Shown: positions 10,169-59,738 of the stretch, piece after piece
How the letters are laid out: each line of letters opens with the position of its first letter
How positions within the stretch are numbered: the stretch's first letter is position 1
Source of the DNA: Escherichia coli
GTDB taxonomy: Bacteria > Pseudomonadota > Gammaproteobacteria > Enterobacterales > Enterobacteriaceae
Direction: 5' to 3' (one strand)
NCBI RefSeq assembly: GCF_001677475.2
Contig: NZ_CP015229.1
DNA length: 64,000 nt
The notes under the pieces: model-generated
What the model saw: only the letters and a program-made list of their open reading frames with translations
Told to the model about the DNA's origin: nothing
Database searches by the model: none
Position numbers and translations under genes: made by a program

Positions 10169-11602
10169 CTATTTCAAGCGATAGTAAAGCTCACGGTACG
10201 ACTTCGCCGCGACCTGCCAGCTAAAATCCATTGCCATAGCCTGACGTTGCACAAACCGCCACAGTGAAGGACGGGACCACAGTACAAAAGCACGTCGAAT
10301 AGCCCGTAACAGCGACCAGGCATTACTATCTTCAAAGACAAACCCACTGGCGACGCCATCTGCAAGGTTCTCAAGAGAACAGTCAGAAACCGTATCAGCA
10401 AGCCCACCGGTGCGCCGCACTAACGGCAGCGTACCGTACTTCAATCCATAAAGTTGCGTTAAGCCGCACGGTTCAAAACGGCTGGGCACCAGAATGACGT
10501 CCGCGCCGCCCATAATGCGATGCGAAAATGCTTCGTGATAGCCAATCTGAACGCCCACCTGGCCGGGGTATTCCGCTGCCGCCGCAAGGAAACCTTCCTG
10601 CAGCACCGGATCGCCCGCGCCGAGTAGCGCCAACTGCCCGCCCTGCTCCAGAAGACCCGGTAAGGCTTCCAGCACCAGGTCGAGACCTTTCTGGCTGGTC
10701 AGACGGCTCACCACTGCAAAAAGCGGCACTTTATCGTCAACCTTAAGCCCCATTGCGATTTGTAACTGGCGCTTATTTTCCGCTTTATCTTCCAACGTAT
10801 CGCGGGTGTAGCGCGAGGCCAACAGTAAGTCCGTCTCTGGACTCCAGATTTTCTCGTCCACGCCGTTCAGTACGCCTGAAAGACGCCCTTCACGGTGACG
10901 CTGTTGCAACAGACCTTCCATACCGTAGGCAAACTGCGGTTCGGTGATCTCGCGAGCGTAGGTTGGACTGACCGCCGTAATGTGATCGGCATAGTACAGA
11001 CCGGCCTTCAGGAAAGAGATTTGTCCGTTGAATTCCAGCCCATGAATATTAAAGAATGACCATGGCAATTGGATGTCATTCATATGATGTGCATAAAACA
11101 TGCCTTGATAGGCCAGGTTGTGCACAGTAAACACCGACTTCGCCGGACGCCCGCGCGCCGCCAGATACGCAGGCGCAAGGCCTGCATGCCAGTCGTGCGC
11201 ATGCACCACATCAGGACGCCAGAATGGGTCAAGACCGCTGGCCATTTCTGCCCCAACCCACCCCAGCAGCGCAAAACGCAATACGTTGTCGGTATAGGCA
11301 AATAAGTTGGTATCGTGATACGGGCTTCCCGGACGATCATAGAGATGCGGCGCGTCAATCAGGTAAATGCCAACCCCGTTGTAATGACCGAACAACAGCG
11401 TGATATGTCCGGCGAAGGTATCACGACGGGATACTACCTGCGCATCGGTCACGCCACGGCGAATATCGGGAAATGCAGGCAACAGTACGCGAGCGTCAAC
11501 GCCGTCTGCGATTTGTGCTGCGGGTAATGCCCCAATAACATCAGCCAGACCGCCGGTTTTAAGCAGCGGGAACATCTCTGAACATACATGTAAAACCTGC
11601 AT
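10169..11602 (-). CDS. glgA: Glycogen synthase GlgA (ADP-glucose transglucosylase)
   Basis: 477-aa ORF; N-terminal KTGGLADV motif. Confidence 0.95.
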
Positions 11603-24373: not shown

Positions 24374-24494
24374 GATTTCGTCCTTTTTAAGGTGATTATT
24401 TACACCTTAGCGCAAAGCGGACGTGGTTCCTACTGGAGTGCGCATAACGAACACAAGCACTTCCCGTGGATAAATTGAAAACGAAAGATCAAAA

Positions 24495-24584
24495 AAAAGC
24501 CAGCACCCGGCTGGCTAAGTAATACTGGAAGCAATGTGAGCAATGTCGTGCTTTCAGGTTCTCCGCGAGGGTCTTCCTGATCGC
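24495..24584 (-). ncRNA. ryhB: Iron-responsive small RNA RyhB
   Basis: Minus-strand sequence GCGATCAGGAAGACCCTCGCGGAGAACCTGAAAGCACGACATTGCTCACATTGCTTCCAGTATTACTTAGCCAGCCGGGTGCTGGCTTTT matches RyhB as I recall it, including the terminator hairpin and U-tail; ends are approximate. Confidence 0.9.
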
Positions 24585-53709: not shown

Positions 53710-54297
53710 ATGTATCGGATAGTTCTGGGGAAAGTTTCGACCTTAAGCGCAGCTCCACTGCCACCAGGTTTACGCGAGCAAGCCCCGCAAGGTCCACGAC
53801 GCGAACGCTGGCTGGCGGGGCGTGCATTACTTTCGCACACGCTTTCCCCGCTACCGGAGATCATCTATGGCGAACAAGGCAAACCGGCATTCGCGCCGGA
53901 AACGCCGCTATGGTTCAACTTAAGCCATAGCGGTGACGATATCGCCCTGCTGTTGAGCGATGAAGGCGAAGTCGGCTGCGATATCGAAGTGATTCGCCCG
54001 CGCGCCAACTGGCGCTGGCTGGCGAACGCCGTGTTCAGCCTCGGGGAACACGCTGAGATGGACGCCGTGCATCCCGATCAGCAACTAGAAATGTTCTGGC
54101 GCATCTGGACGCGCAAAGAAGCCATCGTTAAACAACGTGGCGGCAGCGCCTGGCAAATCGTCAGCGTAGACAGCACCTATCACTCATCACTGTCGGTCAG
54201 CCATTGCCAGCTTGATAATTTAAGCCTGGCGATCTGCACTCCCACCCCCTTTACGCTCTCCGCCGACAGTGTGCAATGGATCGATTCAGTTAACTGA
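53710..54297 (+). CDS. acpT: 4'-phosphopantetheinyl transferase AcpT
   Basis: 195-aa ORF; Sfp-type PPTase motifs (FNLSHSGDD, WTRKEAIVK). Confidence 0.85.
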   Translation: MYRIVLGKVSTLSAAPLPPGLREQAPQGPRRERWLAGRALLSHTLSPLPEIIYGEQGKPAFAPETPLWFNLSHSGDDIALLLSDEGEVGCDIEVIRPRANWRWLANAVFSLGEHAEMDAVHPDQQLEMFWRIWTRKEAIVKQRGGSAWQIVSVDSTYHSSLSVSHCQLDNLSLAICTPTPFTLSADSVQWIDSVN

Positions 54298-54342
54298 TCC
54301 GCCCACCCGACTGCCCATCTATTGATCCAGAACAGGTAATCA

Positions 54343-54370
54343 GTATGACGAATACTTAAAATCGTCATAC
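54343..54370 (+). promoter_or_regulatory. NikR operator in the nikA promoter
   Basis: Perfect GTATGA-N16-TCATAC dyad about 40 nt upstream of the nikA start. Confidence 0.75.
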
Positions 54371-54407
54371 TTATTTCCGCCATCTATTTTAATCCATTGG
54401 GGTTACC

Positions 54408-55982
54408 ATGCTCTCCACACTCCGCCGCACTCTATTTGCGCTGCTGGCTTGTGCGTCTTTTATCGTCCATGCCGCTGCACCAGATGAAATCACCACCGCC
54501 TGGCCGGTGAATGTCGGGCCACTAAACCCGCACCTTTACACGCCTAACCAGATGTTCGCCCAGAGCATGGTTTATGAACCGCTGGTGAAATATCAGGCAG
54601 ACGGTTCGGTGATCCCGTGGCTGGCAAAAAGCTGGACTCATTCAGAAGATGGTAAAACCTGGACCTTCACCCTGCGTGATGACGTGAAATTCTCCAACGG
54701 CGAACCGTTTGATGCAGAGGCGGCGGCAGAAAACTTCCGTGCAGTGCTTGATAACCGTCAACGTCACGCCTGGCTGGAGCTGGCAAACCAGATTGTTGAT
54801 GTCAAAGCACTCAGCAAAAACGAGCTGCAAATCACCCTGAAAAGCGCCTACTATCCTTTCCTGCAAGAACTGGCCCTGCCCCGTCCTTTCCGTTTTATCG
54901 CACCCTCGCAGTTTAAAAACCACGAAACCATGAACGGAATTAAAGCGCCAATTGGCACCGGGCCGTGGGTTTTGCAGGAATCGAAACTGAATCAGTACGA
55001 TGTCTTTGTCCGTAACGAAAACTACTGGGGCGAGAAGCCGGCGATTAAGAAGATCACTTTTAACGTCATCCCGGACCCGACTACCCGCGCGGTGGCGTTT
55101 GAAACTGGCGATATCGACCTGCTGTACGGAAACGAAGGGTTATTACCGCTCGATACCTTCGCCCGCTTTAGCCAGAACCCGGCTTACCACACCCAACTGT
55201 CACAGCCGATCGAAACCGTGATGCTGGCGCTCAATACCGCCAAAGCCCCCACCAACGAGCTGGCCGTACGTGAAGCTCTTAATTACGCGGTAAACAAAAA
55301 ATCGCTGATTGATAACGCGTTGTATGGCACCCAGCAGGTCGCCGACACCCTGTTTGCCCCTTCTGTGCCCTACGCCAACCTCGGCCTGAAACCGCGCCAG
55401 TACGATCCGCAAAAAGCGAAAGCGTTGCTGGAAAAAGCCGGTTGGACGCTGCCTGCGGGCAAAGACATCCGCGAGAAAAATGGTCAGCCGCTGCGCATTG
55501 AACTTTCGTTCATCGGCACCGATGCGTTAAGCAAATCGATGGCGGAAATCATTCAGGCTGATATGCGCCAGATTGGCGCAGATGTCTCACTGATTGGCGA
55601 AGAAGAGAGCAGTATCTATGCTCGTCAGCGCGACGGTCGTTTTGGCATGATTTTTCATCGCACCTGGGGCGCGCCATACGATCCACACGCCTTCCTGAGT
55701 TCAATGCGCGTACCGTCGCACGCTGATTTCCAGGCACAGCAAGGATTAGCCGACAAGCCGCTGATTGATAAAGAGATCGGCGAAGTGCTGGCGACCCATG
55801 ACGAAACGCAACGTCAGGCGCTGTATCGCGACATTCTGACCCGTCTGCATGACGAGGCGGTTTATCTGCCTATCAGTTACATCTCAATGATGGTGGTATC
55901 AAAACCGGAGCTGGGTAACATCCCCTACGCGCCGATCGCCACCGAAATTCCGTTCGAACAGATTAAACCGGTGAAACCTTAA
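54408..55982 (+). CDS. nikA: Periplasmic nickel-binding protein NikA
   Basis: 524-aa ORF with signal peptide; family-5 solute-binding protein heading nikABCDE. Confidence 0.95.
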
Positions 55983-56922
55983 TGTTGCGTTACGTATTAC
56001 GCCGCTTTCTGCTGCTGATCCCGATGGTGCTCGCCGCCTCGGTGATCATTTTTCTGATGCTGCGCCTCGGCACCGGCGACCCGGCGCTCGATTATTTGCG
56101 TCTGTCTAACCTGCCGCCGACGCCGGAGATGCTGGCCTCTACCCGCACCATGCTGGGACTGGATCAGCCGCTGTACGTCCAGTACGGCACCTGGTTGTGG
56201 AAGGCGCTGCATCTTGACTTTGGTATCTCATTCGCCAGCCAACGCCCGGTGCTCGACGATATGCTGAACTTCCTGCCCGCTACGCTGGAACTTGCAGGTG
56301 CCGCGCTGGTGTTAATTCTGCTCACTTCCGTGCCGCTCGGCATCTGGGCGGCGCGCCATCGCGATCGTCTGCCGGATTTCGCCGTACGTTTCATCGCGTT
56401 TCTCGGCGTGTCGATGCCCAACTTCTGGCTGGCGTTTTTGCTGGTGATGGCGTTTTCGGTATATCTGCAATGGCTACCCGCGATGGGCTACGGCGGCTGG
56501 CAGCACATCATTCTGCCTGCGGTTTCCATTGCCTTTATGTCGCTGGCGATTAACGCGCGACTGCTGCGCGCCAGTATGCTGGACGTCGCAGGTCAGCGTC
56601 ACGTCACCTGGGCGCGGCTACGCGGCCTGAACGACAAACAGACCGAACGCCGCCATATTCTGCGTAATGCCTCGCTGCCGATGATCACCGCCGTGGGGAT
56701 GCACATCGGCGAACTGATTGGCGGGACGATGATTATCGAAAACATCTTTGCCTGGCCGGGCGTCGGGCGCTATGCGGTGTCGGCGATTTTTAACCGTGAC
56801 TATCCGGTGATCCAGTGCTTTACGCTGATGATGGTGGTGGTTTTTGTGGTCTGTAATTTGATTGTCGATTTGCTAAACGCCGCGCTGGACCCGCGCATTC
56901 GTCGTCATGAAGGAGCGCACGC

Positions 56923-56926
<4 letters not shown>
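55982..56926 (+). CDS. nikB: Nickel ABC transporter permease NikB
   Basis: 314-aa polytopic ORF; DppB-like. Confidence 0.95.
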
Positions 56927-59730
<2,804 letters not shown>

Positions 59731-59738
59731 CCCCGTAA

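What the first reader, a model, noticed from the sequence alone, without database searches (positions are those of the whole stretch)
54343..54370. Perfect NikR operator dyad upstream of nikA
GTATGA-N16-TCATAC is present without mismatch, overlapping the probable nikA promoter, consistent with nickel-dependent repression by the NikR encoded at the operon end.
Basis: partly seen in the sequence, partly recalled or inferred. Interest (0 to 1): 0.2.

Follow-up and report, generated by a model that had tools for sequence, protein, structure and literature searches.

The report
Known NikR operator at nikA promoter
This is the well-known binding site through which the E. coli nickel sensor NikR shuts off the nickel-uptake operon; it is identical to the laboratory-strain sequence, so it is real but ordinary.

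Summary
GTATGA-N16-TCATAC lies at 54343-54370 without mismatch; none of 100 shuffles gave an exact match. It sits 37 nt upstream of the nikA start codon, in the acpT-nikA intergenic region of an E. coli chromosome.

The 151 bp around it are identical to K-12 MG1655, where reviews describe this sequence as the NikR operator. The nikR gene at the operon end (59329-59730) matches the crystallised E. coli NikR, including the operator complex 2HZV, at all 132 aligned residues.

An N16 dyad with at most one mismatch lies upstream of nikA in 75 of 80 other species. None occurs elsewhere in 1.11 Mb of those loci.

A weight matrix built only from non-Escherichia operators scores this site 43.5 of 49.1 bits. 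The next best hit in the window scores 4.9.

Conservation also shows the promoter. An FNR box lies at 54322-54335 and a -10 hexamer TAAAAT (54357-54362) lies inside the operator spacer. With the published FNR position of -40.5, the transcription start falls near 54369, so the operator spans about -26 to +2.

Mechanism: Ni-NikR occludes the core promoter.

Verdict: already known, low interest.

The parts
54343..54370 (.). NikR operator, GTATGA-N16-TCATAC (28 bp)
   Evidence: Exact match, unique in the window, 0 of 100 shuffles. Identical to K-12. PWM from non-Escherichia operators scores it 43.5 of 49.1 bits.
54343..54348 (.). Left half-site GTATGA
   Evidence: Nearly invariant in 67 unique non-Escherichia promoter sequences, 1.62-2.0 bits per column.
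54365..54370 (.). Right half-site TCATAC
   Evidence: Nearly invariant in 67 unique non-Escherichia promoter sequences, 1.39-2.0 bits per column.
54335..54378 (.). Extended imperfect inverted repeat around the operator (17-nt arms, 88% complementary; perfect 10-bp core at 54342-54351 and 54362-54371)
54357..54362 (+). Probable -10 hexamer TAAAAT of the nikA promoter, inside the operator spacer
   Evidence: TAnAAT at this fixed position in 64 of 70 non-Escherichia loci; only hexamer position 3 varies. Its spacing to the FNR box fits a class II promoter. This is inference.
54322..54335 (+). FNR box TTGATccagAACAG (centre 54328.5)
   Evidence: TTGAT at a fixed offset of -21 from the dyad in 60 of 70 non-Escherichia loci. 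FNR ChIP-seq peak at nikABCDE, motif at -40.5, operon directly FNR-activated (PMC3688515).
54369..54369 (+). Inferred transcription start of nikABCDE (within about 1-2 nt)
   Evidence: Inference: FNR centre 54328.5 plus 40.5. This puts the -10 hexamer at -12 to -7.
54408..55982 (+). nikA, periplasmic nickel-binding protein
   Evidence: TIGR02294, 839.6 bits against a cut-off of 393
55982..56926 (+). nikB, permease
   Evidence: NF007677, 643.4 bits against a cut-off of 433
56923..57756 (+). nikC, permease
   Evidence: NF007738, 536.9 bits against a cut-off of 335
57756..58520 (+). nikD, ATPase
   Evidence: TIGR02770, 352.6 bits against a cut-off of 318.7
58517..59323 (+). nikE, ATPase
   Evidence: NF007739, 509.9 bits against a cut-off of 354
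59329..59730 (+). nikR, nickel-responsive ribbon-helix-helix repressor that binds the operator
   Evidence: NF002815, 235.3 bits against a cut-off of 83. Identical to PDB 1q5v/2hza/2hzv/3od2 at all 132 aligned residues.

Best explanation
The dyad is the canonical operator of the E. coli nickel repressor NikR in the nikABCDE-nikR promoter. When cytoplasmic nickel is sufficient, the Ni-loaded NikR tetramer places one ribbon-helix-helix dimer in the major groove at each GTATGA half-site, two helical turns apart. The operator covers the -10 hexamer (in its spacer) and the transcription start (in its right half-site). Bound NikR therefore blocks RNA polymerase from the FNR-activated promoter and shuts off synthesis of the nickel importer. 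Shown here: the sequence, its identity to K-12, its conservation and position, and the identity of NikR. Taken from the literature: Ni-dependent binding to this sequence and FNR occupancy. Inferred: the exact -10 hexamer and start site, and occlusion as the repression mechanism.
For: The dyad is exact and unique. The surrounding 151 bp are identical to K-12 MG1655. Of 5425 complete E. coli genomes holding the site, 5156 are identical over 42 bp centred on it. nikABCDE-nikR lie directly downstream, all above equivalog cut-offs. NikR matches the crystallised protein, including the operator complex entry 2HZV, at all 132 aligned residues. Reviews state that Ni-NikR binds GTATGA-N16-TCATAC in the nikABCDE promoter with nanomolar affinity (PMC7055735; PMC4486848; PMC545781). 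An N16 dyad with at most 1 mismatch is present upstream of nikA in 75 of 80 species loci and 0 times elsewhere in 1,110,506 bp. An independent PWM scores the site 43.5 bits against 4.9 for the next best hit. Half-site columns are the most conserved in the promoter: about 1.9 bits, against 0.53 upstream and 0.18 downstream. A NikR gene is linked in 62 of 80 loci, and the N-terminal strand RVTITL/RITITL is conserved. The FNR box, -10 hexamer and published FNR position of -40.5 place the operator at about -26 to +2.
Against: No binding or expression experiment can be run here. The primary papers (Chivers & Sauer 2000; Schreiter 2006; Rowe 2005) are not held in the library, so the biochemistry is cited through reviews. 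The simple sigma-70 scan found no promoter. That is expected for an activator-dependent promoter without a -35 element, but it means the -10 hexamer and start site rest on conservation and on the FNR distance rather than on a direct mapping that I could read.
Confidence: 0.97

Rival explanations
1. The palindrome works mainly as an RNA hairpin, for example an intrinsic terminator for the upstream acpT transcript, and not as a protein-binding site.
For: The + strand RNA folds into a 10-bp stem with a 10-nt loop at -15.6 kcal/mol, z = -4.8. The stem is followed by a T-rich CTTATTT and lies 46 nt after the acpT stop codon.
Against: Any palindrome folds well. The terminator scan found nothing; the loop is 10 nt and the T tract is weak. 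The half-sites are conserved as sequence, not by covariation: positions 2, 4 and 5 and their partners are invariant in 50 unique operators. The dyad persists in four alphaproteobacterial loci where nikR lies divergently upstream, so no co-directional nikR transcript needs terminating there. The dyad stays at a fixed 21-bp offset from the FNR box. A secondary role in stopping acpT read-through is not excluded.
Confidence: 0.02
2. The dyad is conserved only because it contains the core promoter (-10 hexamer and start site) or the site of another regulator such as FNR or NarL, and NikR is incidental.
For: A -10 hexamer lies in the spacer, and a NarL-type heptamer TACTTAT overlaps the right half-site.
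Against: The half-sites are more conserved than the -10 hexamer and have no promoter-element identity. The left half-site lies at -26 to -21, where a class II promoter needs no specific sequence. The FNR motif is a separate block 21 bp upstream. The NarL heptamer is poorly conserved outside Escherichia: its M position is A or C in only 24 of 67 sequences. Reviews report direct Ni-NikR binding to exactly this sequence.
Confidence: 0.01
3. The dyad is a chance palindrome without function.
For: None beyond the general abundance of short palindromes in AT-rich intergenic DNA.
Against: 0 of 100 shuffles gave an exact match. The dyad is present in 75 of 80 orthologous promoters and nowhere else in 1.11 Mb.
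Confidence: 0

Closest known systems
E. coli K-12 nikABCDE operator of NikR (Chivers & Sauer 2000, as cited in PMC7055735; co-crystal PDB 2HZV)
   Same: The sequence is identical over the whole 151-bp stretch compared, which spans the acpT-nikA intergenic region. The position relative to nikA is the same. The operon is the same, and NikR matches the PDB chain at all 132 aligned residues.
   Different: Nothing at the operator itself. The strain differs from K-12 only in flanking polymorphisms and in lacking rhsB downstream of nikR.
Enterobacterial NikR signal GTATGAT-N13/14-ATCATAC from comparative genomics (PMC545781, citing Rodionov et al.)
   Same: Same dyad architecture. The consensus of 67 unique non-Escherichia promoter sequences here is GTATGATGAAT...AATCrTCATAC.
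   Different: Escherichia has C rather than T at position 7 (GTATGAC). The seventh position is not strictly symmetric across genera: it is complementary in 17 of 50 unique operators.
Delta-proteobacterial NikR boxes, GTGTTAC-N13/14-GTAACAC (PMC545781)
   Same: An inverted repeat of 27-28 bp with two half-sites two helical turns apart, upstream of nickel transporter genes.
   Different: The half-site sequence is different. Consistent with this, the Desulfovibrio nikA locus fetched here (L081) lacks the E. coli-type dyad.
Class II FNR-activated promoters such as dmsA, narG and yfiD
   Same: An FNR box centred about 40.5-41.5 bp upstream of the start, no recognisable -35 element, and a good -10 hexamer.
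   Different: The right FNR half-site is degenerate, AACAG against ATCAA. A metal repressor operator is overlaid on the -10 hexamer and the start site.

Membership tests
E. coli-type NikR operator | Two inverted 6-bp half-sites, GTATGA and TCATAC | tested here: met
   0 mismatches at 54343-54348 and 54365-54370
E. coli-type NikR operator | 16-bp spacer, so the half-sites are two helical turns apart | tested here: met
   The spacer 54349-54364 is 16 bp. N16 is kept in 75 of 80 orthologous loci.
E. coli-type NikR operator | Located in, and overlapping, the core promoter of a nickel-uptake operon | tested here: met
   The dyad ends 37 nt before the nikA ATG. The -10 hexamer lies in the spacer, and the FNR position of -40.5 puts the start near 54369. 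The start site is inferred, not read from a mapping experiment.
E. coli-type NikR operator | A cognate NikR (ribbon-helix-helix N-domain plus nickel-binding C-domain) is encoded in the genome | tested here: met
   nikR at 59329-59730: NF002815, 235 bits against a cut-off of 83; identical to PDB 1q5v/2hzv at all 132 aligned residues
E. coli-type NikR operator | Sequence identity with the experimentally characterised K-12 operator | tested here: met
   151 of 151 bp identical to MG1655
E. coli-type NikR operator | Conservation in orthologous nik promoters | tested here: met
   53 perfect and 22 one-mismatch dyads in 80 species, none elsewhere in 1.11 Mb
E. coli-type NikR operator | Nickel-dependent binding of NikR and nickel-dependent repression in vivo | not testable with these tools
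   Reported for the identical K-12 sequence in reviews (PMC7055735, PMC4486848). The primary papers are not held.
Class II FNR-dependent promoter | FNR box TTGAT-N4-ATCAA centred near -41.5 | tested here: met
   TTGATccagAACAG at 54322-54335: left half 5 of 5, right half 3 of 5. TTGAT is conserved at a fixed offset in 60 of 70 loci. Myers 2013 gives the motif at -40.5.
Class II FNR-dependent promoter | FNR occupancy and FNR-dependent activation in vivo | not testable with these tools
   Literature: ChIP-seq peak, increased sigma-70 occupancy and increased expression without oxygen; Category 1, direct activation (PMC3688515)

The most novel reading that the evidence does not exclude
The single perfect NarL-type heptamer TACTTAT at 54368-54374 overlaps the right NikR half-site and the inferred transcription start. 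It could be the NarL site behind the reported nitrate (NarLX) repression of nikABCDE, for which PMC2718512 says no NarL binding site could be detected. Two repressors would then share the same few base pairs of the promoter.
Probability: 0.1. Interest if true: 0.25.

Novelty: already known. Interest (0 to 1): 0.04.

Why it matters
It matters little as a discovery. This is a textbook metalloregulator operator in its textbook location, and the sequence is identical to the one studied biochemically and crystallographically. It is useful for annotation: it marks the nikA promoter and confirms that this strain keeps intact nickel- and oxygen-responsive control of nickel import for [NiFe]-hydrogenase maturation. 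The cross-genus footprint adds a compact view of the composite promoter: FNR box, then 21 bp to the NikR dyad, with the -10 hexamer inside the dyad's spacer. That layout is conserved across Enterobacterales.

Tried and rejected
(1) I tried to read the primary papers: Schreiter 2006 (PMC1564233), Rowe 2005 (PMC1236639) and Phillips 2008 (PMC5914170). None is held, so I used reviews and Myers 2013 instead.

(2) The sigma-70 and terminator consensus scan of 54150-54500 found nothing. I read this as an activator-dependent promoter without a -35 element, not as absence of a promoter.

(3) My first ortholog scan used only 300 bp upstream of nikA. It wrongly suggested that Escherichia sp. E1V33 (L006) had lost the dyad. 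Searching the whole locus showed the operator intact about 500 bp upstream, displaced by an insertion.

(4) The RNA hairpin or terminator reading was considered and rejected as the main function.

(5) The 2-mismatch dyad at 11054 was rejected as chance. It scores 10.0 bits on the half-site-only matrix, against 23.3 for the real site.

(6) One literature query failed on syntax.

Full report
**Observation.** The 28-mer GTATGACGAATACTTAAAATCGTCATAC lies at window 54343-54370. It is the only exact match to GTATGA-N16-TCATAC in the 64 kb window, and none of 100 dinucleotide-preserving shuffles produced one. With two mismatches allowed, a second site appears at 11054. That is what chance gives: mean 1.41 expected, and 41 of 100 shuffles had at least 2. 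The perfect arms are 10 bp (54342-54351 and 54362-54371), and an imperfect 17-nt inverted repeat spans 54335-54378.

**Context.** The dyad lies in the 110-bp gap between acpT (53710-54297) and a six-gene + strand cluster at 54408-59730. Those genes match the NCBIfam equivalogs for NikA, NikB, NikC, NikD, NikE and NikR, all above the curated cut-offs. The window is E. coli: 301 bp around the site match 5425 of 5426 complete genomes, always between acpT and nikA.

**Comparison with K-12 and within the species.**
- The 151 bp from the end of acpT into nikA are identical to K-12 MG1655 at every position. Three other strains differ at only 1-2 positions each, all outside the dyad.
- Over 42 bp centred on the operator, 5156 of 5425 genomes are identical and 269 differ at one or two positions.
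- In the four variant genomes I fetched, plus the GTDB E. coli representative L005, the changes were mostly in the flanks or the spacer. One strain (EC23-1020) has G1 to A in the left half-site.
- The NikR protein matches the chain in PDB entries 1Q5V, 2HZA, 2HZV and 3OD2 at all 132 aligned residues.

**What is known.**
- Reviews state that Ni(II)-NikR binds the palindrome GTATGA-N16-TCATAC within the nikABCDE promoter with nanomolar affinity. They cite Chivers & Sauer 2000 and 2002 and Bloom & Zamble 2004 (PMC7055735).
- In the co-crystal structure, the antiparallel beta-strands of the ribbon-helix-helix domains occupy the major groove of each half-site (PMC4486848).
- Comparative genomics gives the enterobacterial signal as GTATGAT-N13/14-ATCATAC (PMC545781).
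- The primary papers are not in the held library.

I fetched nikA loci from 80 species representatives and scanned them.
- An N16 dyad with at most one mismatch occurs exactly once in each of 75 loci, always within 600 bp upstream of nikA. It occurs nowhere else in 1,110,506 bp.
- 53 of these dyads are perfect.
- Samsonia has two mismatches and Stappia has an N15 variant.
- Only a Desulfovibrio MAG, Paenibacillus and Domibacillus lack the dyad. These three have the most distant NikA (49-51% identity) and no linked nikR.
- NikR is encoded at the operon end in 57 loci. It lies upstream of nikA in five alphaproteobacterial-type loci, divergently in four of them. The N-terminal strand RVTITL/RITITL is conserved.
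- The dyad is therefore present in orthologous promoters, and the interpretation survives its own test.

**Weight-matrix scan.** I built a log-odds matrix from the 50 unique non-Escherichia operators, so it is independent of the window. It scores the site 43.5 bits of a possible 49.1. The next unrelated site in the window scores 4.9 bits, and the background is -60.5 ± 13.4. A matrix using only the 12 half-site columns gives 23.3 bits here and 10.0 for the runner-up.

**Promoter anatomy.** I anchored 67 unique non-Escherichia promoter sequences on the dyad and looked at per-column conservation. Three blocks stand out.
- The two half-sites are the most conserved, at 1.4-2.0 bits per column.
- TTGATCC..CA lies at a fixed offset of 21 bp upstream of the dyad in 60 of 70 loci. 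In the window this is TTGATccagAACAG at 54322-54335, an FNR-type box with a perfect left half.
- TAnAAT lies in the operator spacer in 64 of 70 loci. In the window this is TAAAAT at 54357-54362, and only hexamer position 3 varies, as expected for a -10 element.

Myers et al. 2013 list nikABCDE among operons directly activated by FNR. They report a ChIP-seq peak, one motif located at -40.5 relative to the known start site, and higher sigma-70 occupancy and expression without oxygen (PMC3688515). Adding 40.5 to the box centre of 54328.5 gives a start near 54369. That puts TAAAAT at -12 to -7 and the NikR operator at about -26 to +2.

The consensus promoter scan found nothing, as expected for a class II activator-dependent promoter without a -35 hexamer. 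The start site and the -10 hexamer are my inference from these two lines of evidence.

**Mechanism.** Ni-loaded NikR bound at both half-sites covers the -10 element and the start site. It therefore excludes RNA polymerase from the FNR-activated promoter. Nickel import is made only when oxygen is absent (FNR active) and nickel is not in excess (NikR free). The steps are graded as follows.
- Shown here: the sequence, its identity to K-12, its conservation, its geometry and the presence of the regulator.
- From the literature: binding and FNR occupancy.
- Inferred: steric occlusion as the repression mechanism.

**Rivals.**
- The palindrome folds as RNA at -15.6 kcal/mol, z = -4.8, and is followed by a T-rich stretch, so an acpT terminator role was considered.
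  - Against it as the main function: the half-sites are conserved as sequence rather than by covariation.
  - The dyad also persists where nikR lies divergently upstream.
  - Its distance to the FNR box is fixed.
  - The terminator scan is negative.
- Conservation due only to promoter elements is rejected, because the left half-site lies at -26 to -21, where no promoter element is needed.
- Chance is excluded.

**Verdict.** This is the already-known NikR operator of E. coli, unchanged from K-12, and interest is low.

Noticed in passing
window 54368-54374 (+): A single perfect NarL-type heptamer TACTTAT (TACYYMT) overlaps the right NikR half-site and the inferred start; about 0.05 are expected per 110 bp from the window's own frequency. 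PMC2718512 lists nikA among NarL-bound promoter regions in which no NarL site could be detected. The heptamer is poorly conserved outside Escherichia and has no 7-2-7 partner.
   Followed up: partly
L008 6366-6482 (Escherichia sp. MOD1-EC7003): An insertion of about 112 bp sits in the nikA 5' leader, about 20 nt downstream of the intact operator, and moves the dyad to -177 from the ATG. The inserted DNA is a dispersed intergenic repeat: median 8 copies per E. coli genome at 80-90% identity. From memory of the ERIC2 primer sequence, it resembles an ERIC/IRU element.
   Followed up: partly
L006 6030-6460 (Escherichia sp. E1V33): About 430 bp of repeat DNA is inserted immediately after TCATACT, including 3.1 tandem copies of an 81-bp unit. 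The FNR box and operator are intact about 500 bp upstream of nikA, and a degenerate partial copy of the right operator arm lies next to nikA. Together with L008, this suggests the leader just downstream of the operator tolerates or attracts repeat insertions.
   Followed up: partly
window 59731-59738: nikR and the convergent yhhJ-like ABC-2 permease ORF are only 8 bp apart. At this same junction K-12 carries the rhsB element and strain ETEC1738 carries a hicAB toxin-antitoxin pair. The junction is therefore a variable insertion point, and it is empty in this strain.
   Followed up: partly
window 24491-24555 (-): The RyhB small RNA gene: Rfam RF00057, 83.1 bits against a gathering score of 55. 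It was the only Rfam hit at gathering threshold in the window.
   Followed up: no
L071, L072, L073, L076 (Rhizobium and related alphaproteobacterial-type loci): The same GTATGA-N16-(T/A/G)CATAC dyad lies in the intergenic region shared by nikA and a divergently transcribed nikR. Three of the four (L071-L073) have a TTGAC (-35-like) motif where the enterobacterial FNR box sits; L076 has GGCTGGACGA there instead. NikR specificity is conserved, but the oxygen-sensing input is not.
   Followed up: no
window 11054-11081: GAATGA-N16-TCATTC, a two-mismatch relative of the NikR dyad. It is at chance level and scores only 10.0 bits on the half-site matrix, against 23.3 for the real site.
   Followed up: yes
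L086 (E. coli EC23-1020), aligned to window 54343: A natural operator variant with G1 to A in the left half-site (ATATGA). The same change is seen in Klebsiella indica and a Pluralibacter MAG. Its effect on NikR affinity is unknown.
   Followed up: no
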